A DNA stretch of 64,000 bases from IMG/VR virus record IMGVR_UViG_3300047310_000715. One strand, 5' to 3'. The translations under genes were made by a program, and so were the position numbers. Positions within the stretch are counted from its first letter, which is position 1, and each line of letters starts with the position of its first letter. Of the stretch, positions 3,390-55,459 are shown one piece after another. The notes under the pieces are model-generated. The model was given only the letters and a program-made list of their open reading frames with translations. It had not been told where the DNA came from and did not search any database. The stretch comes from a virus.

Positions 3390-3619
3390 GGGCCCGATAC
3401 GTAGTCGCGCTGCTCGCCTGGTCCTGCACCGCGCCGCGCGGCGCGGTCGAAGCACTGGACCCCGACCCCAATACCCTAATCCCGTGTGCGCCCGGGTGGC
3501 GGTGCCCACCGCGTGATGACTGCGGTGCCCCCGGGGCGCTATGTCCGGAGGGCTACTGTTGCGGCCCAGAAGGCATCAGCATCCAGAGGAGGAAACGTGG
3601 CGAAGACGGCGGCAGGTAA
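3386..3619 (+). CDS. Small Cys-rich putative lipoprotein
   Basis: GTGA overlap with HNH stop; hydrophobic N-terminus ending LAWSC; CAPGWRC and CPEGYCC motifs. Confidence 0.5.
   Translation: MRARYVVALLAWSCTAPRGAVEALDPDPNTLIPCAPGWRCPPRDDCGAPGALCPEGYCCGPEGISIQRRKRGEDGGR
3428..3447. repeat. 20-bp palindrome ACCGCGCCGCGCGGCGCGGT, copy 1 (in ORF)
   Basis: Exact match; perfect self reverse-complement. Confidence 0.95.
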
Positions 3620-3881
3620 GTTTTCGGCGATGAAGGCCTTGATCGCGGCCGCGATGGCGACCGCCTACAACGGGATTCAGGAACGGTTCCGGACCGCGGA
3701 CGACCCCGCACCGGCGCGACTTCGGCTCCCGGCAGGGTTCGGGTTCAAGGGCGGAAACGTCCGGTATCCGCCGCTCGGGTGGGACCAAACTCCCGACCAG
3801 GTCGCGCGCGCGAAAGAACTCGCGGCTCAGAAGCGCGAAGCGCGCGCTGCCCGGAACCTGATGTTGGCCGGGAAAGCCTAA
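3597..3881 (+). CDS. Hypothetical protein
   Basis: GTG after GAGGAGG; TAATG coupling to next gene. Confidence 0.6.
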   Translation: MAKTAAGKFSAMKALIAAAMATAYNGIQERFRTADDPAPARLRLPAGFGFKGGNVRYPPLGWDQTPDQVARAKELAAQKREARAARNLMLAGKA

Positions 3882-4186
3882 TGTGCTCGTACCCGACCCC
3901 CGAACTCGACGACGAGGTTGAGGCGAAGATCGACCACGAGACCTTTAGTGCGGTCGTGCCGCAGGACGGAAGCGCACGAGCCTCGTACGGGACGGTCCCG
4001 CGGGGCGAGATCGGACACATCACGTACGCGACCTGCGCGGGCTGGTTCACGGTTCTGTGGGCGGGCAGAAGCGCCAGCGTCCGGTATGAGCGTCCCGAGC
4101 TCGGGCGGCTCCTGTTCGTTACGAAACCCCGACGGGGTCGAAAACAAGTTCCGTTCGACGTCGCGCCCTACAAGGGGAGGTTTTGA
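3881..4186 (+). CDS. Hypothetical protein
   Basis: ATG overlaps upstream TAA. Confidence 0.6.
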   Translation: MCSYPTPELDDEVEAKIDHETFSAVVPQDGSARASYGTVPRGEIGHITYATCAGWFTVLWAGRSASVRYERPELGRLLFVTKPRRGRKQVPFDVAPYKGRF

Positions 4187-4554
4187 TGATAAGGGGTGCG
4201 TTCTCGGACGAGATCGAAGAGTTCCTAAAGGGGTTCGAGATCCCGGAGGCGAAGGCGGAGCTCGCACCGGAAGCGTATCCGCTCACGTACCGGGTAGGGC
4301 TCCCGGATCGATGGATGGTCTCGGGAGGAGTGGGGCATCGAAGCCGCGAGCAACTTCAGACTGCCCTAAAGGGCATGTTTAGCGACATCGACTTCTTGTT
4401 CGTACCTCTATCGAGAATCGACGGAATCGATTCGGACGCGAGCTGCTGCTTCTGTAGGTCCGACAACCACTACCGCGACCGACCGAACCACAACGGGAAG
4501 TGGGCCTGCGGGATCTGTCGAATCATCCGTGGGATCCCGTTCGGCCGGTCCTGA
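4183..4554 (+). CDS. Hypothetical protein with C-terminal CxxC..CxxC
   Basis: RBS GGGGAGG; CCFC and CGIC pairs. Confidence 0.6.
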   Translation: MMIRGAFSDEIEEFLKGFEIPEAKAELAPEAYPLTYRVGLPDRWMVSGGVGHRSREQLQTALKGMFSDIDFLFVPLSRIDGIDSDASCCFCRSDNHYRDRPNHNGKWACGICRIIRGIPFGRS

Positions 4555-4991
4555 TGGTTACGGCCGAGGCAGTCCTGCTCGCGATCCTGGCGCTCCCGGC
4601 CCCCATGCGGGCCCCCGAGGGCCAAGCGGAGCGGTACGCGTGCGCGATCGCGTCGGTCGCGGAGTCGACCGAGGAGGCTGCTGCGCTGGTCGTAATCGCG
4701 GCCCGCGAGTCGACCTTCCGCCGCGAGGTCGAGGACTGCCGGGTCGCGGGCCTTGGCGGCATGGGGGCGTTTGGACTCTCGGACCGGAACGGGAGGGCCG
4801 CCCAGTGTGGTCCCCTTTACCGACAGGCCAAGGCGGCCCGGGACCGCTACGTCGCGCGCCTCGACTGGGCGCACCCAACTCTGTCGTTTGGCCGCTACAT
4901 CGGTGCTGTACGCCATTGGCAGGAGGCCCATGAGCGGGCCGTGCTCTACTGGAGGGCCCTATGGGAGATCGAAAACCTCGCGTGTCTCTAG
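4554..4991 (+). CDS. Lysozyme-fold / transglycosylase-like protein
   Basis: TGATG coupling; hydrophobic N-terminus; AALVVIAARESTF resembles the SLT catalytic ES motif, followed by GAFGL. Confidence 0.55.
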   Translation: MVTAEAVLLAILALPAPMRAPEGQAERYACAIASVAESTEEAAALVVIAARESTFRREVEDCRVAGLGGMGAFGLSDRNGRAAQCGPLYRQAKAARDRYVARLDWAHPTLSFGRYIGAVRHWQEAHERAVLYWRALWEIENLACL

Positions 4992-5623
4992 AAGTCCCTC
5001 CAGAGCAGGCGGCGCCTTGTCCGCGTTGTACTGGCGACTGGAGCACGCGGCATACGTGCCCACCGGAAACGCCGGAGCAGGCGGTGCCGAATGAGGTGTG
5101 GATTCGCATCGAAAAGCCTGGCGATCACGGCGGTACCTGGAGCGCAGGCGGCGAAGGCCAGGCGCGATGGTACTCCGGCGATACAATCGTCCACTATGTC
5201 AAAGCCCCGCGCGCCGATGGCGGGTCTCAGGAAGGAGCGTCGCCGGTACGCGCCACGCAAGCCGATCGGGCCGGCGGCGCTCCTCCGTGCGACCGTGACG
5301 TGGCCGATGGGGCGGCGTTGAGTGAGGAGGACTTCCGCCGCATAGAGATACGTCTATCGGATGAGCCGTCCTACGACGACGCCGTTAGGTTACTTGCGGA
5401 GGTGCGTCGACTCCGCGCACGTGAGCGTGAGCTGACGGACGATGTGGATGCTCTGGTCACACAAGGCGATGCTTACTGCAAGACAATCGCAGAGCACCAG
5501 AAGCGCGCCGAAGCTGCCGAAGCACGGGTGCGGGATCTGGAGAATGCGATTCGCGCGGCGCTACCGGACGCCAGCTTCTTCGCCAAGCAAACCCTCCGTG
5601 CCGCACTGAAGACAGATTCGTAA
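4961..5623 (+). CDS. Hypothetical coiled-coil protein (Ead/Ea22-like pattern)
   Basis: LLAEVRRLR..RAEAAEARV heptads; TAATG coupling to dam; start uncertain. Confidence 0.5.
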   Translation: MGDRKPRVSLEVPPEQAAPCPRCTGDWSTRHTCPPETPEQAVPNEVWIRIEKPGDHGGTWSAGGEGQARWYSGDTIVHYVKAPRADGGSQEGASPVRATQADRAGGAPPCDRDVADGAALSEEDFRRIEIRLSDEPSYDDAVRLLAEVRRLRARERELTDDVDALVTQGDAYCKTIAEHQKRAEAAEARVRDLENAIRAALPDASFFAKQTLRAALKTDS

Positions 5624-6456
5624 TGGGTCCCCGACCGTTCCTGAAGTGGGCTGGGGGGAAGCGGAATCTAATACCCGAGATTCTCGCTCGGTTCCCACCC
5701 GGGTATCGGGACTACTACGAGCCGTTCCTCGGAGGCGGTGCTGTCTTTCTCGCGCTCTCACCGGGCGGCAGGATCGGTGGGAGGACCTTTCTCGGTGACC
5801 TGAATCCTGACGTCGCGATCTGCTGGAGCGTAATTCGCGACTCGGTCGACGAGCTCATCGGGCAGCTCCGGGAACTCGCCAACAGGACCTCACGGGAGGA
5901 CTACGAGCGGGTACGGGATCTCGCACCCCAGCAACCCGGATACGGCCCTATTGAGCAAGCGGCCCGAACCATCTACCTGAACCGGCTCTGCTTCAACGGG
6001 CTCTATCGGGTGAACCAAAAGGGCCAGTTCAACGTCCCGTACGGGAAGCAAAAGACGCCGGGCGTCGTCGACGCGCCGAACCTCCGGGTGGTCTCGGAAG
6101 CGCTCCAGGGCGTGTCCATTACTAATGGACACTACGCCGAAACACTCAAGCAGGTCGGGCCCGGTGACCTCGTGTATCTGGATCCGCCCTACGTGCCGAC
6201 CTCCGCGACCGCCAACTACGTCGGGTTTTGCCCCAACGGGTTCGGGCCCGCCGACCAAGAGGAACTCGCCGCGACCTTCGACCGCTGCGCACGCGCCGGC
6301 GCGACAGTCCTACTGTCGAACTCCGATACCCCCGAGGCCCGCTACCTTTACCGGCGCTACCGGATCGACCCAATCGTGGCCCGGCGTTCGATCGCCGCAT
6401 CCGGAACCAAGCGGGAACCGGCCCGCGAGATCCTGGTGCGCCATCCGAATCTATAA
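5623..6456 (+). CDS. dam: DNA adenine methyltransferase (Dam / D12 class)
   Basis: PFLKWAGGK, YYEPFLGGGAV, LNRLCFNGLYRVN, YLDPPY and LSNSD motifs. Confidence 0.95.
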   Translation: MGPRPFLKWAGGKRNLIPEILARFPPGYRDYYEPFLGGGAVFLALSPGGRIGGRTFLGDLNPDVAICWSVIRDSVDELIGQLRELANRTSREDYERVRDLAPQQPGYGPIEQAARTIYLNRLCFNGLYRVNQKGQFNVPYGKQKTPGVVDAPNLRVVSEALQGVSITNGHYAETLKQVGPGDLVYLDPPYVPTSATANYVGFCPNGFGPADQEELAATFDRCARAGATVLLSNSDTPEARYLYRRYRIDPIVARRSIAASGTKREPAREILVRHPNL

Positions 6457-6485: not shown

Positions 6486-6746
6486 ATGCGGAAAGCCGGC
6501 CTACCGCGCTTCCAGTACGGCCACTTCACCTCGGACCCCGACGCGATGGTGCCGCAGCGGCTGCTCGAGGCTGTCGCGTGTCGCCCCATCATGCCGGACG
6601 GCTCCCGCCCGCTCCTGCTGGCCCGTGCCTCCACGAGGGCGGCCGCGCGCCAGCGGGTCATCGCGGTCCTGATCGACCGCACCGCCCGCCGACTTCCGAT
6701 CCCGAACGTTCAGGACCGCGCCGCGCGGCGCGGCACAGAGGTATAG
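6486..6746 (+). CDS. Hypothetical protein
   Basis: ATG 6486; fills gap between dam and 6748. Confidence 0.5.
   Translation: MRKAGLPRFQYGHFTSDPDAMVPQRLLEAVACRPIMPDGSRPLLLARASTRAAARQRVIAVLIDRTARRLPIPNVQDRAARRGTEV
6715..6734. repeat. 20-bp palindrome copy 2 (19/20; in ORF)
   Basis: ACCGCGCCGCGCGGCGCGGC; last base T>C. Confidence 0.9.
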
Positions 6747-9946: not shown

Positions 9947-10144
9947 GTGATGGGTGAGGAAGAACGAGAACGGATCATTAAGATTGCGGAGAAGCTTTAC
10001 GGACGGTGGCAGGAACAACTTCTGCGAGTTGGCCTTTCGTTCCGTGAGTTCGATGCGCTGACGAACGACGAGAAGGATAAGTGGTTCAGCGATGCGCGGT
10101 TCGCGATCAAAACAGTCGAGGCGCATCCGCCGGTGCATCGATGA
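9947..10144 (+). CDS. Hypothetical protein
   Basis: Fills gap; ATGA overlap downstream. Confidence 0.55.
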   Translation: MMGEEERERIIKIAEKLYGRWQEQLLRVGLSFREFDALTNDEKDKWFSDARFAIKTVEAHPPVHR

Positions 10145-10662
10145 AGTCGGTCGAACTCGTTAGGCGGGAACTCGAGGCGTTCTGCGAGCTCGCGATCCGG
10201 CGGGGGTGGAGGCTCAAAGCCGGTGGTCTCTTTCACGCGGAAAAAAAGACCTGCTGTCCGTTTGGAGCCGCGGATATCGTACTCGACCCCAACTCATTTT
10301 TCTGCGGAAAGTGCCATCATTCGGTTTGTCCTGACGACCGCGCCCGTCGCGGGGTTAAGGTCGGGTTCGATGGCGTTTTGAACCCGAGGAGTTTACAGAT
10401 CGACGATTGGTATCGACTCGGTCAGTGGTTCCGCGAGCGCTACTTCGTCGGGAACCCGGCCGTCATCGAGGTCGCGTGGGAACCCGAGCTCCATTACTAC
10501 GTCGACCTCGCCGCGACCGACAAGCGCGGGGTCTGGCGGGTCTTCGACACGACGCTCGAGAAGGCGCTCGACGGCGCTCACCGACTCCTCGGCACCGCGC
10601 CGCGCGGCGCGGTGGAGGGCAAGCTTCGGATAAAGTCCGACCAAGGTTGGGTATCGAGATGA
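10141..10662 (+). CDS. Hypothetical protein
   Basis: ATGA overlaps at both ends. Confidence 0.65.
   Translation: MKSVELVRRELEAFCELAIRRGWRLKAGGLFHAEKKTCCPFGAADIVLDPNSFFCGKCHHSVCPDDRARRGVKVGFDGVLNPRSLQIDDWYRLGQWFRERYFVGNPAVIEVAWEPELHYYVDLAATDKRGVWRVFDTTLEKALDGAHRLLGTAPRGAVEGKLRIKSDQGWVSR
10594..10613. repeat. 20-bp palindrome copy 3 (in ORF)
   Basis: Exact match. Confidence 0.95.
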
Positions 10663-13348: not shown

Positions 13349-13968
13349 AGGAACAACCGATCAATAGGCTGACGTGTCGGGTCTGCGGAAAAGAGTTCCT
13401 CGCGAACCGAACCCCTTTTTGCTCGAAGCGGTGTCGGTCCCGCGACCGCTACGAGAGGGAGCGGGCGGCGCTCGGCTGTGAGGTCCGGCACCGGGATGCC
13501 CCGGGGGCGCCGCCGAGACACCGGAAGCCTCCGCCGCCGATCGTTCGCGCACCGGCTGCTCCGACGGCCCAGGAGACACTAGTGGCCCTCCGGGAGGGCC
13601 TCATCGCGTCCGCCAACTCACCGCGCCGCGCGGCGCGGTGGACCCCCGAGCACGAGAACGCGCTCCGGCGGGCCCAGGGACGCCCCGAGCTCCCGCTGCC
13701 GCCCCGGAAGCTCATCAATGGACGCCGGATCCCTCAGAAGCCCGGGATGGGGCCGGGGTCGAACTACTTCGTCCAAAAGGGGCGGGATAAGAACCTGACG
13801 GCCATGACCCACCAGGAGCTCGACCGGTACGAGCGCGAGCACGCCGCGCGGGCCGGGATCCGACACGTCCAGTACCGGGGTCGAGTGGTCCCCCAGGATC
13901 CCCACGGCAACCAGCTCACCAGTACGCTCTCGGGATCTGTCGGGCTCGCGCACGGGCGCCATCGCTGA
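13345..13968 (+). CDS. Zinc-finger (CRVCG..FCSKRC) protein with basic tail
   Basis: GTG 13345; CxxC..CxxxC motif. Confidence 0.6.
   Translation: MKEQPINRLTCRVCGKEFLANRTPFCSKRCRSRDRYERERAALGCEVRHRDAPGAPPRHRKPPPPIVRAPAAPTAQETLVALREGLIASANSPRRAARWTPEHENALRRAQGRPELPLPPRKLINGRRIPQKPGMGPGSNYFVQKGRDKNLTAMTHQELDRYEREHAARAGIRHVQYRGRVVPQDPHGNQLTSTLSGSVGLAHGRHR
13620..13639. repeat. 20-bp palindrome copy 4 (in ORF)
   Basis: Exact match. Confidence 0.95.
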
Positions 13969-21016: not shown

Positions 21017-21036
21017 ACCGCGCCGCGCGGCGCGGT
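21017..21036. repeat. 20-bp palindrome copy 5 (between divergent starts)
   Basis: Exact match. Confidence 0.95.
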
Positions 21037-28818: not shown

Positions 28819-29035
28819 AGGCAGCGCTCCGAAGTCCCGGGGGCCGAAGGAGCACGAGTGCGCGGTCCCGCCGGATCGCCCTATTCCGTGGGAGGCGACC
28901 CGGACGTCGTGCGGCCAACCCGTCGAAGGGTCGGCTCCGTTCCGCGTGATGGCCCAGACGTGGTTCGAGGCCCGTAAGGCTGCGCTCATTCACTTCGGGG
29001 TCGGGCAGGCCGAGATTACGGTCCGGCAGGTCTGA
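28796..29035 (+). CDS. Hypothetical protein
   Basis: GGGAG RBS; its TGA supplies the first base of palindrome copy 6. Confidence 0.55.
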   Translation: MAQRRHARGSAPKSRGPKEHECAVPPDRPIPWEATRTSCGQPVEGSAPFRVMAQTWFEARKAALIHFGVGQAEITVRQV

Positions 29036-29054
29036 CCGCGCCGCGCGGCGCGGT
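29035..29054. repeat. 20-bp palindrome copy 6 (within 32-bp repeat 29032-29063)
   Basis: Exact match; CTG-palindrome-GGTTGAACG. Confidence 0.95.
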
Positions 29055-31720: not shown

Positions 31721-32104
31721 ATGGAGCAGAAGGACATCTCGTTCCCGCGCGGCGACACGTACGCGTTCGAGGTCGTCGCGAAGCGGCCGGATCCCGCGAC
31801 CGGGTTCCTACAGGTAATCGACCTGACGGCCGGCAAGGCGTGGTTCACGGCCAAGCGGACCGTATCGGACCAGGACGCATCCGCGACGATCGCGCTCTCG
31901 ACCACGACCTCGGGAGTCGCGATCGTCGATGCTCTCGGGGGCCGGGTTCGGGTCACGATCCCGCCGGCCCCGACGCTCGCGTTGCCCGATAACCCCGTGA
32001 ACCTCCGGTACGACGTCCAGGTGATGGACTCGACCGGGAACGTCACGACCGTCCAGACCGGGATCTGTTCGGTCGTACCGGACGTCACGCGCGCTACCTC
32101 CTGA
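31721..32104 (+). CDS. BppU N-terminal-like Ig-fold structural protein
   Basis: RGDT..DLT..AWFTAK..GRVRVTIP..YDVQV..V.T pattern. Confidence 0.7.
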   Translation: MEQKDISFPRGDTYAFEVVAKRPDPATGFLQVIDLTAGKAWFTAKRTVSDQDASATIALSTTTSGVAIVDALGGRVRVTIPPAPTLALPDNPVNLRYDVQVMDSTGNVTTVQTGICSVVPDVTRATS

Positions 32105-32123
32105 CCGCGCCGCGCGGCGCGGT
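32104..32123. repeat. 20-bp palindrome copy 7 (within 32-bp repeat 32101-32132)
   Basis: Exact match; CTG-palindrome-GGTTGAACG, again starting on a TGA stop. Confidence 0.95.
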
Positions 32124-38857: not shown

Positions 38858-39136
38858 ATGAGGTTCAGGACGCTCGTCGGCGACGTCGCGGGACTCGCCC
38901 TGTACGGGGCCGGTCTCGCGCTCCTCGAGGTTGGGTGCCGGTTGTCGCCGGCGCTCGACCGGGCCGGTACCGCGCCGCGCGGCGCGGTCGAGGAGCCGGA
39001 CGAGATCCTCGGCGTATCGCTCTCGGCAGAAGCCGAGCGAATGATCGAAGAAGGACGAGCCGAACGCGCGCGTCCGATGCCGGCCGCTGCCGCGCCGCTC
39101 GCGGGCTCCGCGGCCGCCCGCGCGAGGGCCCGGTGA
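38858..39136 (+). CDS. Small protein with N-terminal hydrophobic segment
   Basis: AAGGGA RBS; TGATG coupling to portal. Confidence 0.55.
   Translation: MRFRTLVGDVAGLALYGAGLALLEVGCRLSPALDRAGTAPRGAVEEPDEILGVSLSAEAERMIEEGRAERARPMPAAAAPLAGSAAARARAR
38969..38988. repeat. 20-bp palindrome copy 8 (in ORF)
   Basis: Exact match. Confidence 0.95.
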
Positions 39137-42210: not shown

Positions 42211-42230
42211 ACCGCGCCGCGCGGCGCGGT
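42211..42230. repeat. 20-bp palindrome copy 9 (abuts GGAGG RBS of 42241)
   Basis: Exact match. Confidence 0.95.
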
Positions 42231-42889: not shown

Positions 42890-42892
42890 CCC

Positions 42893-44030: not shown

Positions 44031-44096
44031 GAGGGTCTCGCGTGTTCGCCCCGCGGGGTCGGGGGATAAACGACCCCTGACCCCGTGGAGGAATCA

Positions 44097-44951
44097 ATGG
44101 CTGAAGAAGAAAAGCCGGTTGAGAAACCGGTCGAGAAGACGCTCGAAGAGAAACCGAAGGATCCCCCGAAGGCTTCCGAAGAGAAGCCGAAAGATCCGCC
44201 GAAAGCCGCGAAGGGTGACGACGACGATCTCGTCCCGGATGACGACGGCGTCTACAAGATCCCGCAGGCCCAGTTCCTCAAGCGGGTCGCCCAGATGTCG
44301 GCGAAGGAACTCCGCCGGATCTTCGGAACGAGCGATCTCGACAAGATCGCCGAAGAGCGCAAGGAAGCCCAGTCGCTCAAGAAGGCGAAAGAAGCCGCCG
44401 ACGCAAAGGCGGATGAAGAGCGCCGGGCGAAGCTCGACGAGGAGACGCGACTCAAGGAGGACCTCAAGAAGAAGGAGGACCGGATCGCGGAACTCGAGCG
44501 CCTCAATTCCGAGAAGGAAGAGGGGATGTTGGCCGATCGCCAGGAGCAGGTCCTGACGAAGATCGCCGCGAAGCTGTTCGAGGAAGACTACGTCGATGTC
44601 GCGCTCGACCGATTCCGTCGCCACGTCCGGGGGCTCTCAAGCTCGAAGGTCAGGGCGATGGACGAAGAAGATGTTTCGACCTGGTTCCGGCAGTACGCGG
44701 AGAAGCACCCGAAGATTGCGCGCGGGGCCGATTCGACCGAGACCGACGACGACAAGAAGAAGCGCGAGACGGCCGAGGCGGCCAAGAAACCGAAGGTGCC
44801 GCTCGATACGAAACCGAAGGACCGCAAGACCGCAACGTCTTCTCTCGACATGGGGAAGTTCGGCGGTAAGACCCCGCGGCCCGGTCAGCCGAACTCGATG
44901 AACAGCACCGAGCTCGCCGAGTACAAGCGGGCGCGCGGTATGTCCTGGTAA
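44097..44951 (+). CDS. Capsid scaffolding protein
   Basis: GGAGG RBS; highly charged E/K coiled coil directly upstream of capsid gene. Confidence 0.8.
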   Translation: MAEEEKPVEKPVEKTLEEKPKDPPKASEEKPKDPPKAAKGDDDDLVPDDDGVYKIPQAQFLKRVAQMSAKELRRIFGTSDLDKIAEERKEAQSLKKAKEAADAKADEERRAKLDEETRLKEDLKKKEDRIAELERLNSEKEEGMLADRQEQVLTKIAAKLFEEDYVDVALDRFRRHVRGLSSSKVRAMDEEDVSTWFRQYAEKHPKIARGADSTETDDDKKKRETAEAAKKPKVPLDTKPKDRKTATSSLDMGKFGGKTPRPGQPNSMNSTELAEYKRARGMSW

Positions 44952-44970
44952 CGAGGACGTCCTGATCCCC

Positions 44971-45006
44971 GGAGGGGCAAGCGATCGAGAGGTCGTTTGC
45001 CCCTTC
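44971..45006 (+). other. 16-bp hairpin with GAGA tetraloop in capsid leader
   Basis: GGAGGGGCAAGCGATC/GGTCGTTTGCCCCTTC fully paired allowing G-U; followed by TGCTTTT. Confidence 0.7.
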
Positions 45007-45187
45007 TGCTTTTGGGGGCGGCTTGCGCGGGCTCGGGACGAATGCCACGGTTCCGGTGTCCAGACGCGAACAGGCAGACCCAGTCCCCCAATACGCGCAC
45101 GACGGCGGTTAACGGTCGGTCCCGGGAGGAGTGGCAGAGGCCCAGTAGCGAAGGCTACCAGAACCCCCACCCGAAAGATCCATCCCA

Positions 45188-46597
45188 ATGGCCATCCAAG
45201 GCTCTATCGTCTCTGCCCTCCCGGAGGGCATTCAGTCGCTCATCCAAGAGGGGATGCTCGAGAGGGCATTCCACGACGGTCTTGTGCCGGCGCTCCAGTA
45301 CCGCGCCGAGGGTATGTTTCAGCGCTTCGAGGGTAACCTCGGCACCGAGAAGCTGGAGACCCGCCCGGGCCTTCTGCGCCCCAAGACAACCCCGCTCGTC
45401 GCGGGCGTCGACCCCAATCCCCAGGCCCTGACGTACGAGCAGTGGTACGCGCGCATCGACCAATACGGCGATTCGATCGACACCCACATGCCGACCAGCG
45501 CCGTTTCGATCGGCGACCAGTTCGGCCGGAACGTTCACCAACTCGGCATCCAGGCCGGTATGTCGGTCAACCGAATGGCCCGCAACGCGTTCTTCAAGCC
45601 CTACTTGGGAGGCTCGACGAACCTGATCGCCGCAACCGGTACCGGCGACACCACGATCCGGGTCGCGGCCCTCAACGGGTTCACGACCGTCATCGGTTCG
45701 ACGAACGCTCAGGTTCGCCCGGTTCCGATCGGTCCCTCCTCGCCGCTCTCGATCACGATCATGAACGGCGCGACCCCGATCGTCCGCAACGCGATCGGTT
45801 TCGCTCCCGACGACCCCACGGACCCGTTCGGGCCCGGTACCTTGACGCTCTCCGCGACCGTCGGGTCGGTCGTCGCGACCCGCTCGCCCGTGCTTTCGGC
45901 GCTCCGCCCGAAGATCCTCCGCAGCGGCGGTGGTGACTCGGTCGACGCGCTTTCAAGCTCGGACACGATCGCGCTTCAGGACGTCATCAATGCCTGCGCG
46001 GAACTCCGCCAGCGCAACGTGCCGCCCCACGAGGACGGGTTCTATCACGCTCACCTGTCGAGCCTGACGAACGCTCAAGTGTTCCAGGACCCGGTCTACC
46101 AGCGCCTTCAGCAATCGCTGCCCGAGAACGCCCCCTACAAGCAGGCGTACATCGGGACCGTCGCGGGCGTCTCGTTCTACATGAACACCGAGTCGCCTGA
46201 CTCGGGGAACTCCGGGACCCTGACCGGAACTTCGGCGAATGCGTTCTACGCGGCCGACATCGGCGCCGAAGTCGTCAACAACGGCGGCGTAAAGGTCGGA
46301 CGCGTGATCGTATGTGGCCGCGGCGCCCTCTACGAGCACGGGCTCGACGAGTCCGCCTACGTGAGCGAAGCGGGCGTCAACGGGAAGATCGGCGAGTTCG
46401 ACATCGTGAACAACGGCGTCCAGATCTCGACCGACCGTATCCGGCTGATCATCCGGGCTCCCGTGAACCGCATGCAGGACCTCGTCAGTTCGAGCTGGTC
46501 CATCACGGCCGGCTGGTCGGCCCCGACCGACTTCACCGCGCAGGGTGGCAGCGAGCTCTACAAGCGCGCTGTCGTGATTGAGCACGCATTGGGCTAG
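45188..46597 (+). CDS. Major capsid protein
   Basis: 469 aa after scaffold; N4-gp56-like features (IDQYGD.I, ALQDVINACAEL..NVPP..DGFY.A.L); followed by terminator. Confidence 0.85.
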   Translation: MAIQGSIVSALPEGIQSLIQEGMLERAFHDGLVPALQYRAEGMFQRFEGNLGTEKLETRPGLLRPKTTPLVAGVDPNPQALTYEQWYARIDQYGDSIDTHMPTSAVSIGDQFGRNVHQLGIQAGMSVNRMARNAFFKPYLGGSTNLIAATGTGDTTIRVAALNGFTTVIGSTNAQVRPVPIGPSSPLSITIMNGATPIVRNAIGFAPDDPTDPFGPGTLTLSATVGSVVATRSPVLSALRPKILRSGGGDSVDALSSSDTIALQDVINACAELRQRNVPPHEDGFYHAHLSSLTNAQVFQDPVYQRLQQSLPENAPYKQAYIGTVAGVSFYMNTESPDSGNSGTLTGTSANAFYAADIGAEVVNNGGVKVGRVIVCGRGALYEHGLDESAYVSEAGVNGKIGEFDIVNNGVQISTDRIRLIIRAPVNRMQDLVSSSWSITAGWSAPTDFTAQGGSELYKRAVVIEHALG

Positions 46598-46623
46598 CGC
46601 TTAGTCGCTTCCCGTAAGCCGCG

Positions 46624-46660
46624 AAGGGCCACCTGGTTTACGCCGGGTGGCCTTTTGCTT
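46624..46660 (+). terminator. Rho-independent terminator after capsid gene
   Basis: AAGGGCCACCTGG-TTTACG-CCGGGTGGCCTTT hairpin with TTTTGCTT tail. Confidence 0.8.
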
Positions 46661-46708
46661 GTCCGCCCTTCGCGGGGGCGGTAAAGGAACCGCGGAGGTA
46701 CAGACGAG

Positions 46709-47032
46709 ATGGCCAGATCAGCACCGAAGCCGCAGCAGGCCCAGCAGGCAGAATCCCAGATCCCCGGGGGAAGTTCGGGGGCACCGTTCGTCGAACACGA
46801 CTCGGCAACGATCCCGCTCGCGCCCCCCGACCTCGTCAGGGCCGCGCGCGAGGAACGCGAGCCCGATGAGCCCGTCGTACCGGTCGCCCGCTACCGGGTC
46901 CTTCAAGAACGTCGGATCATGCACCGCGGTTCCCTGACGATGCTGAAGCCCGGCAAGATCGTCGACGAGTCGAACTACCGGATCGAGGACCTCATCGGTC
47001 AGGGAGTTCAGCTCCAGAAGCTGGAGGAGTAG
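46709..47032 (+). CDS. Small head-associated protein
   Basis: GGAGG RBS; C-terminal YRVL..I.H.G..LKPG.IV motif. Confidence 0.65.
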   Translation: MARSAPKPQQAQQAESQIPGGSSGAPFVEHDSATIPLAPPDLVRAAREEREPDEPVVPVARYRVLQERRIMHRGSLTMLKPGKIVDESNYRIEDLIGQGVQLQKLEE

Positions 47033-47033
47033 G

Positions 47034-47444
47034 GTGGCGCTTTCGGAGGACGAACGGGTCCGGATTCGGCATCACCTCGGCTACCTCAACGTCGCGGAGG
47101 TCGCGACGTTCGTGTTAGGTGTCCCGGCGTCGGTCCAGACCCAGTTCATGATCGAGCCCGCGATGGACAAGATCCTGTTGCCGGCCGAGGCGAAGGCGCG
47201 ACAGCTCCTCGATCAACTCGACGCGGTCGAGTTCCAACTGTTCGACGACACCGAGACGCTCGTCGCAAGCAAGGTCGGGTCGATCGACCTGAACCCGGAC
47301 GAGTTCGAGAAGGTCATCCAGCGGTACGACTTCATCCGGAACGGGCTCGCCAACATCTTGGGTGTGATCCCGAACCCGTACGACAAGCGATTTTGGCAAT
47401 CCGGTGGGGGAGCGGTCGGCATCAACGTGCCGATCGTTCACTGA
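47034..47444 (+). CDS. Head-tail adaptor
   Basis: ALSEDERVRIRHHLGY N-terminus; position. Confidence 0.65.
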   Translation: MALSEDERVRIRHHLGYLNVAEVATFVLGVPASVQTQFMIEPAMDKILLPAEAKARQLLDQLDAVEFQLFDDTETLVASKVGSIDLNPDEFEKVIQRYDFIRNGLANILGVIPNPYDKRFWQSGGGAVGINVPIVH

Positions 47445-47447
47445 CGG

Positions 47448-47981
47448 ATGCCGAAGGTCGGACCGCTCCCGCCGGGTAAGGTCGGCCGAACCCTCATCGA
47501 CAAGCTCGTCGGGAAGGCCGACAAGATTCGTCAGCTCGCGACCAAGCTCGGGATCCGGCCATACCGGGTATTCTTGGTTCACTCGGGGTGGACGGGGGAG
47601 GAACGCGGCGAAGGACGCGAGCGCGAGCTCAGCCGGGTAGAGCTGCTCCCGACCCCGCGCGTCAGCCCGCTCGACGCGGTCTCGCGGGTACCGTTCCACG
47701 CCGGCGCGTACCCGGTCGGATCCATCCGGGTCGACGAGATCTCGATGCGGTACACGGAGGACCAGCTCAATGGGCTCGGATACCCGCGCACGGGCGCGGA
47801 CGAAGTTCCGGAGCGGTTCGACTTCTGGTACGAGCTCGTCGAGGACGGTCGCTCTGGGGGGCCGGTTCGACCGCAGAAGTACCGGATCCTGGGGCAGCCG
47901 TTCCGGAATGCCGAGCAGGTCTTTTGGGCGGTCGCACTCGAGAGAATCTCGGACGACCCACCGGCGCGTCAGCTGCCTTAG
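47448..47981 (+). CDS. Head closure / neck protein
   Basis: Position; LGIRPYRVFLV..LPTPRV..G.I.V..IS pattern. Confidence 0.6.
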   Translation: MPKVGPLPPGKVGRTLIDKLVGKADKIRQLATKLGIRPYRVFLVHSGWTGEERGEGRERELSRVELLPTPRVSPLDAVSRVPFHAGAYPVGSIRVDEISMRYTEDQLNGLGYPRTGADEVPERFDFWYELVEDGRSGGPVRPQKYRILGQPFRNAEQVFWAVALERISDDPPARQLP

Positions 47982-48187
47982 CTGGTGAGCCAGCGCTGGA
48001 CGGCACCGCCGGCGCGCGCCGCGCCCGAGATAGCCGCGAACAAGACCATCACGAGCACGATCCCGAACCAGACCGACGCCTGAAGGACCAGGAGCGGTCG
48101 GTCCCACCGCCCGTGCTCCACGAGGTCAGCATCCCAGTGTTGGTAGAACCCAAACGCGGCCGCGACGTAAACGATTAGCGTAACCAT
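47978..48187 (-). CDS. Two-TM small protein, antisense within neck operon
   Basis: MVTLIVYVAAAFGFY and LLVLQASVWFGIVLVMVLFAAI; fills the gap exactly. Confidence 0.6.
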   Translation of the reverse strand: MVTLIVYVAAAFGFYQHWDADLVEHGRWDRPLLVLQASVWFGIVLVMVLFAAISGAARAGGAVQRWLTS

Positions 48188-48197
48188 CGTTGAACCG

Positions 48198-48773
48198 ATG
48201 GCGCGGGGCCGCCAAGCTTCCGGCATGCCCTCGACCGTTATCCCGATCGAAGAGGCCGGCGCCTGGGCGGCCGGGATCGGGCGCGCGATGCCGGATGCGG
48301 CCCGGCGGGGACTCTTGGCGGCCGCTTACCGAATCGTAGGGGCGATCAAAACCCTCGACCTCCCGCTCGACCGCGGAACCGCGCGAGCCGGGTGGCGAGC
48401 CGAACAGGTTCCGGCGGGAGCCGCGATCTTCAATACGGTCCTGGAGGCGGTCCTGATGGAAGGTGGGGTCAGGCCCCAAAACATCAAGATCGGTCGGAAG
48501 ATGATCGATGCCCTCGCGGAGTGGGCCCGCCGAAAGGGCATTGGGTCTCAGCGAAACCAGACCGCGTCCGGCAGGGTCACGAAGGGCCGGCCTGCTGATG
48601 AACTGTACCGGTCGGTCGCGTGGGCGATCGCGACCAAGATGAAGCGGACCGGCATCTTCCACCCCGAGAAGGGGGGCCTCCAGCCGCTCGCCAAAACGAC
48701 TCGTCGACTCGGTCCCCAGTACATTCGCGAAGAGGTCGCGCGCGAGCTCCGCCGGGCCTTCGGGGCAACCTGA
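48198..48773 (+). CDS. Neck protein (HK97 gp10-like)
   Basis: PLDRGTARAGW..E.G..P..I..ALAEWARRKG..AWAIA..MKR.G pattern. Confidence 0.7.
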   Translation: MARGRQASGMPSTVIPIEEAGAWAAGIGRAMPDAARRGLLAAAYRIVGAIKTLDLPLDRGTARAGWRAEQVPAGAAIFNTVLEAVLMEGGVRPQNIKIGRKMIDALAEWARRKGIGSQRNQTASGRVTKGRPADELYRSVAWAIATKMKRTGIFHPEKGGLQPLAKTTRRLGPQYIREEVARELRRAFGAT

Positions 48774-53282: not shown

Positions 53283-55209
53283 GTCGGTCGAGATCAGGTC
53301 AATACTCAAACTCGACGACCAATCGAGTCACGTCGTCGAGAAGGTAAAGGGCGGGTTCGAGCACATGTCGGAGCGGGTCCACGAGGCCCAACACGAGATG
53401 GCGGGGCTCTTCAAGACCTCTCTCGCGATGGCGGCTGGCTTTCAGATCGACCATGGGATCGAGTCGATCAAGGAGTTCGGGCACGAGGTCTTCAACGCCG
53501 CGAAGAACCTCGGGGAAGAACAGAAGCAGCTCGCGGGATCGATCGCGATCGGCGACAAGAGCGGGCGTTCGTACGAGGAGATCAAAGCCCAAGCGGGTGA
53601 GCTTCACGAGGAGCTCGAGGGGCTCGGGATCGCGGCGGGAGCGTCGACGGAATCGATCATCGATGCGTTCTCGACGATCCAGGCGAGAAGTCAGCGGTCG
53701 ATCGAACAGACGAAAGAGCTGACCGAGAACATGGTCTACGCGAGTCGCGCGGTCCCGGGCGGGATGGAGGGAATGGCGAACGCGTTCCGCGATCTCGAAA
53801 CCGGGATCGTCCGGCCCCGCAACGCGCTCGTTCAGCTGATGATCATGACCGGCACCGTCGAAGGGAACGCGAAGAAGGTCTCGAAGGGCCTATCGGCGAT
53901 GTTTCAGTCCGGCGAGGGCGGGCAGGAAAAGGTGATGAAGCTCGCCGAGCAGGCCGTCGAGCGGATGTCGGAAAAAATGAAGAAAGCACCCGTGACGTTC
54001 GGGCAGGCGGTCGAGTCGCTCAAGTCGATGCGGGAAGAAGTGTTCGAGCAGATGGGGGCCCCGATCCTGAAGGCCATGACGGGCCCGCTCGTGAAGCTGA
54101 AGGAGTACTTCGTTCAGAATCGCGAGGCGATCTCGAAGTGGGCTCACGAGGTGGGGGTAAAGGTCGGGGTTTGGATCAAGGAAGCGGCCGAGAAGATCCG
54201 GGAGGGATTCCAGTACCTTCAGAACCACGCCGAGGAGATCAAAAAAGCGATTCAGGAGGGGTTCGACGCCGCGAAGGCGGTCGTGCAGTGGATCCTGGCC
54301 CACAAGGAGGAGATCGCGATCGCGTTCGGCGCGAAGGCGGTTCTGCCGGGCGCGATCGGGGCCGCGAAGGGCGGTATCGAGGTCGCGAGCTCACTCGCCG
54401 GCATGGGCGGCATGGGGCTGAAGGGCGGCAGCCTGATGAGTGCCGGGGGGCTCGCGTCGTTCGGGCTCGCGGTCGCGGCGTTCGCGGCCGCCGTTGGGGC
54501 CTGGAAGCTCGCGATCGACCAGTGGAACAAGCTCCGCGACATGACGCACGGAAAGTCGGATGCTGAGCAGAACGAAGAGGCTCGCAACGTCAGGCTCCGC
54601 GACATGGGGGGTTCAGCCGAGAAGATCGACACGAAGGAGTTCGACAAGCTTCGGGCCGCCTACATCGACCAGGCGGACGCGATGGGGATGTCGCAACGCG
54701 CGGCCGGCGAATACGCGGATGCGGTCTGGGAGCATCACCGGATCCTCCGGCAGTCGGCCGAGGAGGTCGACGAGATCGCACAGCGGGCCGGTCAGGGCGA
54801 CGAAGTCGAGAGCGCGAAACGTTGGGTCGATATCTTCAACGGCGCGGTGCTTCAGCAGAACGAAGCGGTTCAGCGGTACGCGGCGAACGCGCTCGCGGGA
54901 TCCGAGATGCTCCAGAATGCGTTCCTCGCGAGCGGGGCGAACGTCGAGGGTGGGTTCGATCACCTCGCGGAACTCGTCGGCGGGAAGTCGGAGGAATTCG
55001 CCAAGATCCTCAAGGGAATGGGGACCGACGCCGCGCACGGGAAGCTGCCTGACAAGGTCCAGATGAACTTCAACGGCAACACCTTCAACATCAAGCAGGA
55101 CTTTAAAGACTCGGACCCGGACCGGATTCTACTGACGTTCCGCCGCGACCTTGTCCGGAACGCGATCGCGCGTAACCAGAGCCGACTCGGGACTCCGTTC
55201 GGCATCTAG
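53275..55209 (+). CDS. Tape measure protein
   Basis: 644 aa, Ala/Gly-rich helical; position after chaperone. Confidence 0.85.
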   Translation: MAESVEIRSILKLDDQSSHVVEKVKGGFEHMSERVHEAQHEMAGLFKTSLAMAAGFQIDHGIESIKEFGHEVFNAAKNLGEEQKQLAGSIAIGDKSGRSYEEIKAQAGELHEELEGLGIAAGASTESIIDAFSTIQARSQRSIEQTKELTENMVYASRAVPGGMEGMANAFRDLETGIVRPRNALVQLMIMTGTVEGNAKKVSKGLSAMFQSGEGGQEKVMKLAEQAVERMSEKMKKAPVTFGQAVESLKSMREEVFEQMGAPILKAMTGPLVKLKEYFVQNREAISKWAHEVGVKVGVWIKEAAEKIREGFQYLQNHAEEIKKAIQEGFDAAKAVVQWILAHKEEIAIAFGAKAVLPGAIGAAKGGIEVASSLAGMGGMGLKGGSLMSAGGLASFGLAVAAFAAAVGAWKLAIDQWNKLRDMTHGKSDAEQNEEARNVRLRDMGGSAEKIDTKEFDKLRAAYIDQADAMGMSQRAAGEYADAVWEHHRILRQSAEEVDEIAQRAGQGDEVESAKRWVDIFNGAVLQQNEAVQRYAANALAGSEMLQNAFLASGANVEGGFDHLAELVGGKSEEFAKILKGMGTDAAHGKLPDKVQMNFNGNTFNIKQDFKDSDPDRILLTFRRDLVRNAIARNQSRLGTPFGI

Positions 55210-55258
55210 TTGTGCGGGCGCCTCAGCAGCGGTAGGGTTCTGGCCAGGAGAATCCAAC

Positions 55259-55435
55259 ATGGCGATGCCCCCGTTCCTCAAGAAAAAGCTCGATGCGTCG
55301 AGCGAGTCCGAAAGCTCCGCCAGCGAGTCCGAAAGCTCGGCTAGCGAGTCGGAGTCCGAAAGCTCGGCTTCTCCCGCCCCCAAGAAAAAGGCATCGTTCG
55401 GCAAGGGCCTCGCGGCCTGGGCCGGCAAGAAGTAG
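55259..55435 (+). CDS. 58-aa protein with Ser/Glu repeats and Lys-rich ends
   Basis: CAGGAG RBS; (SESESSA)n encoded by 21-bp tandem units. Confidence 0.6.
   Translation: MAMPPFLKKKLDASSESESSASESESSASESESESSASPAPKKKASFGKGLAAWAGKK
55301..55369 (+). repeat. 21-bp tandem repeat x3 (third unit has 6-bp insert)
   Basis: AGCGAGTCCGAAAGCTCSGCY at 55301, 55322, 55343. Confidence 0.85.
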
Positions 55436-55439
55436 GGGG

Positions 55440-55459
55440 ACCGCGCCGCGCGGCGCGGT
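55440..55459. repeat. 20-bp palindrome copy 10 (5 nt before GTG 55465)
   Basis: Exact match. Confidence 0.95.

What the first reader, a model, noticed from the sequence alone, without database searches (positions are those of the whole stretch)
3428..55459. Dispersed 20-bp perfect palindrome ACCGCGCCGCGCGGCGCGGT, ten copies, kept inside genes in all three frames
Seen: copies at 3428, 6715 (19/20), 10594, 13620, 21017, 29035, 32104, 38969, 42211 and 55440. Five lie in ORFs, read as TAPRGAV, RAARRG or PRRAAR, apparently at termini or linkers, so selection acts on the DNA rather than the peptide. Five are intergenic and close to stop or start codons. Copies are never clustered: gaps are 3287, 3879, 3026, 7397, 8018, 3069, 6865, 3242 and 13229 bp. 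Internally the motif is a 5-bp periodic (CCGCG)2/(CGCGG)2 structure that can extrude as a cruciform. Ten copies of one 20-mer in 64 kb are far beyond chance. Inference: a genome-wide phage-specific site system. Candidates are parS-like or nucleoid-organising protein sites, stoperator-like transcription blocks, programmed nick or processing sites (cf. GCGC-containing T5 nicks), or recombination hot spots. I do not recognise it as a described element.
Basis: partly seen in the sequence, partly recalled or inferred. Interest (0 to 1): 0.88.

Follow-up and report, generated by a model that had tools for sequence, protein, structure and literature searches.

The report
Lineage-specific palindromic operator sites in phage
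An uncultured soil phage carries ten copies of one 20-base mirror-symmetric DNA word at its gene boundaries, and each related phage carries a different word of its own, so the copies are most likely docking sites for a paired phage protein that controls most of the phage's genes at once.

Summary
Confirmed. Nine exact copies and one 19/20 copy of ACCGCGCCGCGCGGCGCGGT lie at the stated coordinates (0.06 expected). Half-sites never occur alone. The window is part of an uncultured soil phage, probably 90-100 kb.

The main result is comparative. Twelve related contigs (capsid protein 45-69% identical) each carry their own dispersed, gap-free 16-24-bp perfect palindrome, about one per 5 kb. There are eleven sequences, all symmetric through the centre. 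Four relatives have none.

- 71% of 126 copies are intergenic.
- They abut the upstream stop codon.
- They precede TANNNT/leaderless-start signatures about four times more often than other genes do.
- They occupy 6 of 14 well-supported divergent junctions but 0 of 14 convergent ones.
- They lack T-tracts and are not a host repeat.
- No transposase or recombinase was found.

Best reading (about 0.55): duplex-DNA operator sites for an unidentified, co-evolving dimeric phage regulator that controls most transcription units. RNA hairpins or terminators, ParB-type organising sites, enzyme substrates and selfish repeats are less likely.

The closest published parallels are the Cluster O mycobacteriophage 17-bp dyad repeats (function unknown) and KorB-OB. 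This scan has already noted similar dispersed palindromes in many other phage genomes.

The parts
3428..3447 (.). Palindrome copy 1, exact, intergenic. TACCCT (3472-3477) lies 24 nt downstream and GTG 3486 lies 8 nt after that.
6715..6734 (.). Palindrome copy 2, 19/20 (last base C). It lies in the last codons of ORF 6486-6746, 13 nt before the next start at 6748.
10594..10613 (.). Palindrome copy 3, exact. It lies 16 codons before the stop of ORF 10141-10662, and the next gene starts at 10647.
13620..13639 (.). Palindrome copy 4, exact. It lies in the linker or start region of ORF 13177/13582-13968.
21017..21036 (.). Palindrome copy 5, exact, in a divergent gap. On the minus strand TAGGGT (21014-21009), 5 nt and ATG 21003 follow it directly.
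29035..29054 (.). Palindrome copy 6, exact. It shares its first A with the upstream TGA. It is followed by GGTTGAAC, a GC hairpin, GAGGCT (29080-29085), 6 nt and ATG 29092. It is part of a 32-bp stretch identical to that at 32101.
32104..32123 (.). Palindrome copy 7, exact. It shares its first A with the TGA of gene 31721-32104, 37 nt before start 32160. A relative (G001) has its own palindrome at the same gene junction.
38969..38988 (.). Palindrome copy 8, exact, in the variable linker of small ORF 38858-39136 upstream of the portal gene. The relative G001 has its palindrome just upstream of the homologous ORF.
42211..42230 (.). Palindrome copy 9, exact, intergenic after the head-morphogenesis gene 41151-42170. 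GGAGG and ATG 42241 follow directly. This junction carries a palindrome in most relatives.
55440..55459 (.). Palindrome copy 10, exact, intergenic. It lies 5 nt after stop 55435 and 5 nt before GTG 55465. The relative G001 has its palindrome at the same junction.

Best explanation
The 20-bp palindrome is this phage's version of a clade-wide, lineage-specific set of operator sites. These would be two-fold-symmetric sites on double-stranded DNA, each bound across both 10-bp halves by a homodimer of one phage-encoded, sequence-specific DNA-binding protein that has co-evolved with its sites.

The sites sit at the boundaries of transcription units. They lie directly after the stop codon of the gene upstream and 0-30 bp upstream of -10-type (TANNNT) elements and leaderless starts, including divergent promoter gaps. 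A bound dimer would cover the -35/upstream region. It could therefore gate initiation, and read-through from upstream, at most phage operons together. Repression or roadblock is more likely than activation, because the spacing to the -10 element is variable.

Shown here:
- the sites exist, and relatives carry their own versions;
- symmetry runs through the centre of every version;
- the sequence is under strong purifying selection;
- the sites are placed at promoter-type junctions.

Inferred, not shown:
- that a protein binds;
- that the effect is on transcription;
- the sign of that effect.

The binder is not identified and is not evidently encoded in the window. In relatives, a protein with a ParB/KorB-type DNA-binding domain, encoded next to the phage sigma factor, is one candidate.
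For: 1. Reality and specificity. Ten copies against 0.06 expected, no degenerate copies and no isolated half-sites.

2. Clade-wide, with a different sequence in each lineage. Relatives found through the capsid protein each carry their own perfect palindrome, for example ACCGCGCATCGATGCGCGGT, ACCGCGGATCGATCCGCGGT, ACGTCGGATCGATCCGACGT, TCCTCGGAACGTTCCGAGGA, TTGGAAACCCGGGTTTCCAA, ACGTAAACCGCGGTTTACGT, TTTAGACAGATCGATCTGTCTAAA and GAGATAACACCGGTGTTATCTC. Near-complete genomes hold 8-20 copies each.

3. Symmetry includes the centre. All six different central hexamers are self-complementary. An RNA or ssDNA hairpin leaves its loop free, whereas a symmetric dimer on duplex DNA does not.

4. Purifying selection. 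Contigs G007 and G008 are only 74% identical in nucleotides, yet share the identical 22-mer at the same junctions.

5. Position.
- 90 of 126 copies are intergenic, in genomes called 80-93% coding.
- Genes with a copy 45 nt or less upstream show a TANNNT-N5-8-ATG/GTG signature in 17/57 cases, against 68/865 for other genes (p = 4e-6).
- That signature is on the sense side for 23 copies and on the antisense side for 1.
- 6 of 14 well-supported divergent junctions hold a copy, against 0 of the 14 matching convergent junctions and 9% of co-directional ones.

6. Junctions conserved across lineages with different motifs. These include the junction after the head-morphogenesis gene, the one before the portal, one inside the tail module, and the same linker of the DNA polymerase gene in three genomes.

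7. Not terminators.
- No T-tract follows the copies.
- In the 55.6% GC relative the flanks are TTTA...TAAA, the wrong polarity for a terminator.
- The window has a conventional hairpin plus T-tract terminator at 44971-45016.

8. Not a host or mobile repeat. Genome and metagenome collections give only scattered single copies. No Y1 transposase, tyrosine integrase or serine recombinase is found in five near-complete relatives.

9. A published precedent of the same architecture exists (PMC4351075; PMC11790492).
Against: - No binding protein is identified.
- The two ParB-related families in relatives do not track the motif, or they also occur in palindrome-free relatives.
- Identity of 18 of 18 copies over 22 bp is stricter than typical operator sets. 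This hints at homogenisation or at a more demanding recognition, such as by an enzyme.
- Only about 30% of palindrome-adjacent genes show a recognisable -10 signature. Several copies sit in compact stop-palindrome-RBS-start junctions with no room for a separate promoter.
- Some copies lie deep in genes.
- Gene calls are my own codon-usage calls, not a validated gene finder.
- No RNA or binding data exist for these uncultured phages.
Confidence: 0.55

Rival explanations
1. The element works as an RNA hairpin. The transcribed palindrome folds into an 8-10-bp stem with a 4-nt loop and acts as a terminator or attenuator, an RNase processing site, or a 3'-end stabiliser between cistrons.
For: - The sequence folds as an 8-bp GC stem with a 4-nt loop in local context.
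- Most copies lie just after stop codons and before the next ribosome-binding site, the classic place for intercistronic hairpins.
- Arm changes between lineages keep complementarity.
Against: - The would-be loop is self-complementary in every lineage (six different centres), and none is a stable tetraloop type.
- No T-tract follows, and flanks have the wrong polarity in the lower-GC relative.
- No copy sits at any of the 14 well-supported convergent junctions, while 6 of 14 divergent gaps hold one, where no upstream transcript arrives.
- The window has an ordinary T-tract terminator elsewhere.
- A structure alone does not explain identity of all copies over 20-24 nt.
- No Rfam family matches.
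Confidence: 0.12
2. The copies are loading or docking sites of a ParB/KorB-type protein that organises, condenses or partitions the phage chromosome, or silences at a distance by sliding. On this reading they are not local promoter operators.
For: - Spacing is more even than random in most genomes.
- Relatives encode ParB N-terminal-domain proteins.
- Relatives also encode a protein whose modelled central domain matches ParB/Spo0J/KorB DNA-binding domains: Z 10 to 1vz0 and 6s6h, Z 7.2 to the KorB-operator complex 1r71.
- KorB operators lie at variable distances from promoters (PMC11790492).
- Earlier notes of this scan propose the same for other phages.
Against: - The ParB N-domain family does not follow the motif. 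The protein of G003 groups with that of G011 although the motifs differ.
- Both families have homologues in palindrome-free relatives.
- The window's own ParB-like ORF lacks an HTH.
- The candidate with the ParB-type DNA-binding domain has no CTPase domain.
- The model is of low overall confidence (mean pLDDT 55.6), and Z 10 is modest for a helical domain.
Confidence: 0.13
3. The copies are substrate sites of a symmetric DNA enzyme. This could be programmed nicking or cleavage, site-specific recombination that exchanges gene cassettes, or initiation sites for replication or packaging.
For: - Perfect, full-length conservation of every copy is typical of enzyme targets.
- The clade encodes RecA, SbcCD-like and ParB-nuclease-like proteins.
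Against: - No integrase, resolvase or Y1 enzyme is found in five near-complete relatives.
- Contigs from many samples run through the sites uninterrupted apart from de Bruijn repeat breaks.
- 10-20 double-strand targets per genome would be hazardous.
- Nothing in this reading explains the preference for promoter-type junctions over convergent ones.
Confidence: 0.1
4. The palindrome is a selfish, REP- or MITE-like mini-element that spreads by insertion and is merely tolerated.
For: - One genic copy is a clean insertion into a conserved SbcC-like protein relative to three orthologues.
- Other genic copies sit in indel-rich linkers.
- Copies are identical, and no decayed copies are seen.
Against: - The sequence is conserved across 26% nucleotide divergence at the same junctions.
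- Junctions are shared between lineages with different sequences.
- There are no target-site duplications in the flanks and no transposase.
- Copies are absent from convergent gaps, which are normally the most permissive places.
- It is not a host repeat.
Confidence: 0.05

Closest known systems
17-bp dyad repeats of Cluster O mycobacteriophages (TGTTCGGNNNCCGAACA; PMC4351075)
   Same: - One short dyad-symmetric word, with invariant arms, is repeated tens of times throughout a lytic-looking phage genome.
- Many copies are intergenic and about a third are inside genes.
- Most copies are at the same places in related genomes.
- The authors predict binding by a dimeric DNA-binding protein.
- The function is unknown.
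- ParB-like domain proteins are present in the genome.
   Different: - Here the palindrome is gap-free and symmetric through the centre, and it is longer (16-24 bp).
- It is rarer, about one per 5 kb against about one per 2 kb.
- It differs in sequence between lineages of one clade, which the five near-identical Cluster O genomes could not show.
- There is no sequence similarity, and the phages are unrelated.
KorB and its OB operators on IncP plasmid RK2 (PMC11790492)
   Same: - A dozen copies of one palindrome are dispersed over a roughly 60-kb mobile genome, at variable distance (4 bp to more than 1 kb) upstream of promoters.
- One dimeric protein coordinates most operons.
- A protein in relatives has a modelled domain of the KorB/ParB DNA-binding fold.
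   Different: - No KorB-type protein (CTPase domain plus DNA-binding domain plus dimerisation domain) is identified here.
- The ParB-related families present do not track the motif.
- This is a phage, not a plasmid.
- The sites are longer.
Stoperators of Cluster A mycobacteriophages and the dispersed C1 operators of phage P1 (from my own knowledge; stoperators are also discussed in PMC4351075)
   Same: Many near-identical repressor sites are spread through a phage genome, within and between operons. They co-evolve with the repressor and silence transcription globally.
   Different: - Those sites are asymmetric and oriented with transcription.
- They belong to temperate phages with an immunity repressor.
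- Here the sites are perfectly symmetric.
- No integrase or partition system was found in near-complete relatives.
REP elements with RAYT (TnpA-REP) transposases (PMC8266576 listed; otherwise from my own knowledge)
   Same: These are short GC-rich palindromes, species-specific in sequence, extragenic, and often just after stop codons.
   Different: - REPs are imperfect palindromes of host chromosomes, present in hundreds of copies and tied to a Y1 transposase.
- Here there is no host genome with multiple copies and no Y1 transposase.
- Here symmetry is perfect, including the centre.

Membership tests
Intrinsic (Rho-independent) terminator | GC-rich hairpin in the transcript | tested here: met
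   An 8-bp stem with a 4-nt loop is predicted in local context.
Intrinsic (Rho-independent) terminator | Run of T directly after the stem | tested here: not met
   No T-run follows any of the 10 window copies or the relatives' copies. Flanks are TTTA...TAAA in the 55.6% GC relative. The scan finds a real hairpin plus T-tract site elsewhere, at 44971-45016.
Intrinsic (Rho-independent) terminator | Placed at 3' ends of transcription units, including convergent gene pairs | tested here: not met
   0 of 14 well-supported convergent junctions hold a copy, against 6 of 14 divergent junctions.
REP/RAYT elements | High copy number in the host chromosome | tested here: not met
   The exact 20-mer gives only scattered single hits in one genome each of 185,579 species, and in metagenome contigs. 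The host itself is unknown, so the host species may not be represented.
REP/RAYT elements | Cognate Y1 (IS200/IS605-like) transposase | tested here: not met
   PF01797 is absent from five near-complete relatives, and the control genomes ring. The window phage's full genome was not available.
ParB-parS / KorB-OB systems | Palindromic site repeated on the replicon | tested here: met
   10 copies in the window and 8-20 per related genome.
ParB-parS / KorB-OB systems | Cognate ParB-family protein (CTP-binding N-domain plus HTH) that co-varies with the site | tested here: inconclusive
   - The window ORF 29326 has a ParB-nuclease-type domain only.
- Relatives have a ParB N-domain family that does not follow the motif.
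- Relatives also have a separate protein with a ParB/KorB-like DNA-binding fold.
- Both families also occur in palindrome-free relatives.
ParB-parS / KorB-OB systems | Protein binds the site, loads as a clamp and spreads | not testable with these tools
   This needs EMSA, ChIP or CTPase assays.
Cluster A stoperators | Asymmetric 13-14-bp site oriented with transcription | tested here: not met
   All versions are perfect palindromes.
Cluster A stoperators | Temperate phage with an immunity repressor and integrase or parABS | tested here: not met
   No tyrosine or serine recombinase is found in five near-complete relatives. A repressor was not identified.
Cluster O-type dyad repeats | Invariant inverted arms repeated throughout a phage genome, mostly intergenic, with conserved positions | tested here: met
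   compared with PMC4351075. This is an analogy of architecture only. There is no sequence or phage homology, so I do not file the element as a member.
CRISPR repeats / solitary repeat units or other known RNA families | Match to a curated RNA family | tested here: not met
   No Rfam match at gathering score anywhere in the window.

The most novel reading that the evidence does not exclude
The palindromes are genome 'identity tags'. Each lineage of this widespread soil-phage clade would have a private regulator-operator code of 16-24-bp perfect palindromes. With it, the phage's own transcription or genome-handling machinery would recognise and coordinate only its own chromosome, and perhaps exclude or silence co-infecting relatives. 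The clade would then be a natural library of orthogonal protein-DNA specificity pairs that diversified by stepwise, symmetric changes in all sites of a genome.
Probability: 0.15. Interest if true: 0.8.

Novelty: new variant of a known kind. Interest (0 to 1): 0.58.

Why it matters
If the sites are operators, one unidentified protein coordinates nearly every operon of a roughly 95-kb lytic-type phage. That would be a plasmid-style (KorB-like) or P1-style global circuit in a group of abundant, uncultured soil phages.

The lineage series shows how a whole set of sites and its binder can change specificity together while staying perfectly symmetric. Some steps differ by single symmetric substitutions: ACCGCGC-CGCGCG, ACCGCGC-ATCGAT, ACCGCGG-ATCGAT and ACGTCGG-ATCGAT.

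Two practical uses follow:
- The series could serve as a set of orthogonal regulator-operator parts.
- It could serve as a marker for sorting metagenomic contigs into phage lineages.

The comparison also gives the long-unexplained Cluster O repeats a clade-scale parallel that can be tested.

Tried and rejected
- **Host REP element.** Rejected. The exact 20-mer is only a scattered single-copy word in genome, viral and metagenome collections, and none of those loci resembles the window.
- **Restriction-site story.** Rejected. The central hexamers are as frequent as expected elsewhere in each genome.
- **Promoter for the phage sigma factor.** Rejected. 20 bp is too short to hold -35 and -10 elements, and no element lies at a fixed distance in the flanks.
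- **Apparent CATGATG boxes after the palindromes in some relatives.** These turned out to be start codons of paralogous genes, not -10 elements.
- **Microdiversity test.** Uninformative. The four runs laid on the window hold an almost identical strain, and their contigs merely break at the repeat.
- **RNA evidence.** None was listed.
- **Filled-versus-empty-site comparison.**
  - G016 is 99.9% identical to G010, but it covers only one copy.
  - All other genome pairs are 74% identical or less.
- **Finding the binder.**
  - Pfam and PHROGs on about 60 proteins gave no HTH or RHH protein in the window.
  - Presence/absence profiling against four palindrome-free relatives left only the sigma factor and ThyX as universally palindrome-linked families. 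The palindrome-free contigs are incomplete.
  - The ParB N-domain family is rejected as the specific binder because of incongruent grouping.
  - The protein with the ParB-type DNA-binding fold stays a candidate only.
- **Closest cultured phage by capsid protein.** Streptomyces phage Kromp has no such repeat.

Full report
**Observation**

The pattern search finds nine exact copies of ACCGCGCCGCGCGGCGCGGT and one 19/20 copy at exactly the coordinates given. There is nothing else within three mismatches, against 0.06 matches expected from dinucleotide-preserving shuffles. The flanks share no further sequence, with one exception: the copies at 29035 and 32104 are identical over 32 bp, covering the upstream TGA, the palindrome and GGTTGAACG. 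The 10-nt half-site never occurs outside the ten copies (19 hits against 1.1 expected).

Six-frame reading and my own codon-usage gene calls place the copies as follows:
- Four copies lie inside ORFs near an end or in a linker (6715, 10594, 13620, 38969). They are read in three different frames.
- One copy lies in a divergent gap (21017).
- Five copies lie in short intergenic spacers.

The stretch is present in 24 soil and rhizosphere DNA runs, and independent contigs span a copy unchanged. It is not an assembly artefact.

**What the window is**

The window is a tailed phage with nearly all genes on the + strand.
- Structural genes: portal 39133-40962, head-morphogenesis protein 41151-42170, major capsid protein 45188-46597, baseplate J 60816-61955.
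- Other genes: a sigma factor with regions 2 and 4 (17935-18762), a D12 adenine methyltransferase (5623-6456), an RNase T-type exonuclease (2126-2797) and a DUF932 protein (16202-17200).

No cultured phage is close. The best capsid match is 31% identity, to Streptomyces phage Kromp, and Kromp has no such repeat. No whole genome is held for the window.

**The decisive comparison**

Capsid-protein relatives in IMG/VR are 45-69% identical. Each turned out to carry its own dispersed perfect palindrome.

| Relative(s) | Palindrome | Copies |
|---|---|---|
| Closest relative (G001) | ACCGCGCATCGATGCGCGGT | 6 in 42 kb |
| G009 | ACCGCGGATCGATCCGCGGT | 9 in 15 kb |
| G007, G008 | (G)ACGTCGGATCGATCCGACGT(C) | 3 and 8 |
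| G010 | TCCTCGGAACGTTCCGAGGA | 9 in 53 kb |
| G002-G005 | GGAAACCCGGGTTTCC core with lineage-specific outer bases | 18 in a 100.6-kb genome, 20 in an 86.8-kb one, 17 in a 76.9-kb one |
| G006 | ACGTAAACCGCGGTTTACGT | 12 in 94.6 kb |
| G011 (terminally redundant, 55.6% GC, 94 kb) | TTTAGACAGATCGATCTGTCTAAA | 8 |
| More distant relative (L268) | GAGATAACACCGGTGTTATCTC | 4 in 21 kb |

Four relatives have no repeated palindrome at all. They are contigs of 88, 53, 42 and 30 kb, two of them low-GC.

So the feature belongs to a clade of roughly 90-100-kb phages. Within a genome the sequence is fixed, and it differs between lineages, in part by single symmetric steps. The window's internal 5-bp periodicity is incidental.

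**DNA or RNA**

Every version is symmetric through its centre. The central hexamers are CGCGCG, ATCGAT, AACGTT, CCCGGG, CCGCGG and ACCGGT. A hairpin in RNA or single-stranded DNA puts no constraint on its loop, and none of the would-be loops is a stable tetraloop type. A homodimer on duplex DNA requires exactly this symmetry.

Other points:
- The RNA hairpin is physically possible, with an 8-bp stem.
- No copy is followed by a T-run.
- In the lower-GC relative the flanks are TTTA...TAAA, the opposite of a terminator.
- The window does contain an ordinary hairpin plus T-tract terminator, at 44971-45016 before the capsid gene.
- No Rfam family matches.

**Selection**

G007 and G008 are only 74% identical in nucleotides where they align. 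They still have the identical 22-mer at the same junctions. In G002, all 18 copies are identical over 22 bp. The central hexamers are not avoided elsewhere, so this is not a restriction-site effect.

**Where the copies lie**

Of 126 copies in 12 genomes, 90 are intergenic, although 80-93% of each genome is called as coding. The usual layout is:
- a stop codon, often TGA overlapping the outer arm;
- the palindrome;
- 15-30 nt;
- the next start.

Genic copies sit in indel-rich linkers. One is a clean insertion into a conserved SbcC-like protein. The C-terminal linker of the family-B DNA polymerase holds a copy at the same place in three genomes whose motifs differ.

Several junctions carry a copy in many lineages despite different sequences. 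These are the junction after the head-morphogenesis gene, the one before the portal, and one between two tail-module genes. The window shares three junctions with its closest relative.

Spacing is more even than random in most genomes.

**Link to promoters**

Twenty-three copies are followed within 30 nt, on the sense side, by TANNNT, then 5-8 nt, then ATG or GTG opening a long ORF. This is the leaderless-promoter layout common in high-GC Gram-positive bacteria (that it is common there is from my own knowledge). Only one copy has it on the antisense side.

Genes with a copy 45 nt or less upstream show this signature in 17 of 57 cases, against 68 of 865 for other genes (odds ratio 5, p = 4e-6), and they have Shine-Dalgarno-like sequences less often.

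Junction types compare as follows:

| Junction type | Junctions with a copy |
|---|---|
| Divergent, next to well-supported minus-strand genes | 6 of 14 |
| Matching convergent | 0 of 14 |
| Co-directional | 81 of 887 |

In divergent gaps no transcript arrives to be terminated or processed, and in some of them the palindrome fills almost the whole gap between two starts.

In the window:
- Copy 21017 is followed on the minus strand by TAGGGT, 5 nt and ATG 21003.
- Copy 29035 is followed by TTGAAC, 17 nt, GAGGCT, 6 nt and ATG 29092.
- Copy 3428 is followed by TACCCT, 8 nt and GTG 3486.

The distance from palindrome to -10 element varies from 0 to 29 nt. That suits occlusion or roadblock better than a spacing-dependent activator.

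**Not a host or mobile repeat**

- The exact 20-mer occurs only as scattered single copies in one genome per 185,579 species, in IMG/VR and in JGI metagenome contigs, and none of those loci resembles the window.
- Five near-complete relatives have no Y1 transposase, tyrosine integrase or serine recombinase, while the control genomes ring.
- No target-site duplications flank the copies.

**Who binds?**

The binder is not settled.

In the window:
- The ParB-like ORF (29326-29706) is a 126-aa DGHHR nuclease-type domain without an HTH, and it has a homologue in a palindrome-free relative.
- The RHH-like ORF more plausibly serves the separate TGTCTAGACA boxes, which are noted and in earlier notes of this scan.

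Relatives encode a replication and recombination module that lies outside the window's span: helicases, DnaB, primase, family-B polymerase, RecA, SbcCD-like proteins and ThyX. They also encode a sigma factor and the large terminase.
- The sigma factor family is present in all five near-complete palindrome-bearing genomes. It is missing at the syntenic place in a palindrome-free one. The window has a different sigma factor.
- Next to that sigma gene lies a 350-400-aa protein. Its modelled central domain matches ParB/Spo0J and KorB DNA-binding domains: Z 10.0 to 1vz0 and 6s6h, and Z 7.2 to the KorB-operator complex. It also has an N-terminal SAP-like domain and a zinc ribbon.
  - The model is of low overall confidence.
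  - Homologues also occur in two palindrome-free relatives.
  - The protein therefore remains a candidate only.
- A ParB N-domain family does not group according to motif.

**Comparison with known systems**

- The nearest published description is the 17-bp dyad repeat of Cluster O mycobacteriophages. It has more than 30 copies, invariant arms, mostly intergenic positions and conserved places, is predicted to bind a dimeric protein, and has no known function (PMC4351075).
- In function, the best-understood analogue is KorB with its OB operators on RK2. These are dispersed at variable distances from promoters (PMC11790492).
- Stoperators and P1 C1 operators share the dispersed architecture, but they are asymmetric and belong to temperate phages.
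- The element fails the tests for intrinsic terminators and for REP/RAYT elements.
- Earlier notes of this scan report similar dispersed palindromes in many other phage genomes and reach similar readings. I treated these as leads only.

**Verdict**

The best-supported mechanism is a lineage-specific operator network for an unidentified dimeric DNA-binding regulator at transcription-unit boundaries (confidence about 0.55). What is new relative to published cases is the clade-wide view: perfect gap-free palindromes whose sequence differs between lineages while position and symmetry are kept.

The main weaknesses are:
- The binder is not identified.
- There are no RNA or binding data.
- The analysis relies on my own gene calls.

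Noticed in passing
window 18732-18745, 22774-22787, 24145-24156 (and neighbours in 15-26 kb): A second, unrelated palindrome family with core GTGTCTAGACAC recurs in the early region. Earlier notes of this scan link it to leaderless early promoters and to an RHH-like ORF at 25937-26158.
   Followed up: partly
window 17935-18762 (+): A phage-encoded sigma factor with regions 2 and 4 (Pfam E 5e-9 and 1e-8). It is only faintly related to the sigma family of the relatives (phmmer E 9e-4).
   Followed up: partly
window 44971-45016 (+): A conventional intrinsic-terminator-like site, with a 16-bp stem followed by a T-rich tail, lies between gene 44085-44951 and the major capsid gene. The phage therefore does use ordinary terminators.
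   Followed up: no
window 29032-29063 and 32101-32132: A 32-bp identical stretch (TGA, the palindrome, GGTTGAACG) brackets a 3.07-kb block that includes the ParB-nuclease-like ORF. Each copy is followed by a short GC hairpin before the next start.
   Followed up: partly
window 5623-6456 (+), 2126-2797 (+), 16202-17200 (+): A D12-class N6-adenine DNA methyltransferase (E 1e-54), an RNase T/DnaQ-type exonuclease, and a DUF932 protein.
   Followed up: no
window 33707-37996 (+): A 1429-aa protein just upstream of the portal region has no Pfam match and only a weak PHROG hit to a major tail protein.
   Followed up: no
L142:9954-12938 and L142:15977-19945 (relative G004): A UvrD-like helicase carries a Hint plus LAGLIDADG intein. 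The family-B DNA polymerase shows an intein-splicing-domain hit.
   Followed up: no
L142:14378-15583 and its orthologues (relatives G002, G003, G004, G006, G011): A protein next to the phage sigma gene combines a SAP-like N-terminal domain, a zinc ribbon, a ParB/KorB-type DNA-binding fold and a C-terminal beta domain, without a ParB CTPase domain. Pfam gives no match.
   Followed up: partly
relatives G012 (88 kb), G014 (53 kb), G013 (42 kb), G015 (30 kb): These members of the same capsid-defined clade have no repeated palindrome at all. Two are low-GC (41-44%). G014 keeps the replication module but lacks the sigma gene at the syntenic place.
   Followed up: partly
relative G004, downstream of palindromes at 9560, 13580, 35910 and 71222: A repeated sigma-70-type promoter (TTGACA or TTTACA, with similar spacers) follows the palindrome at 11-32 nt in four places.
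   Followed up: no
window 28500-48400 in runs X21-X24: Public unitigs of independent soil samples break at the palindrome copies, for example at 32101-32132. Contig G016 begins exactly at a palindrome of its near-identical relative G010. The repeat fragments short-read assemblies.
   Followed up: no
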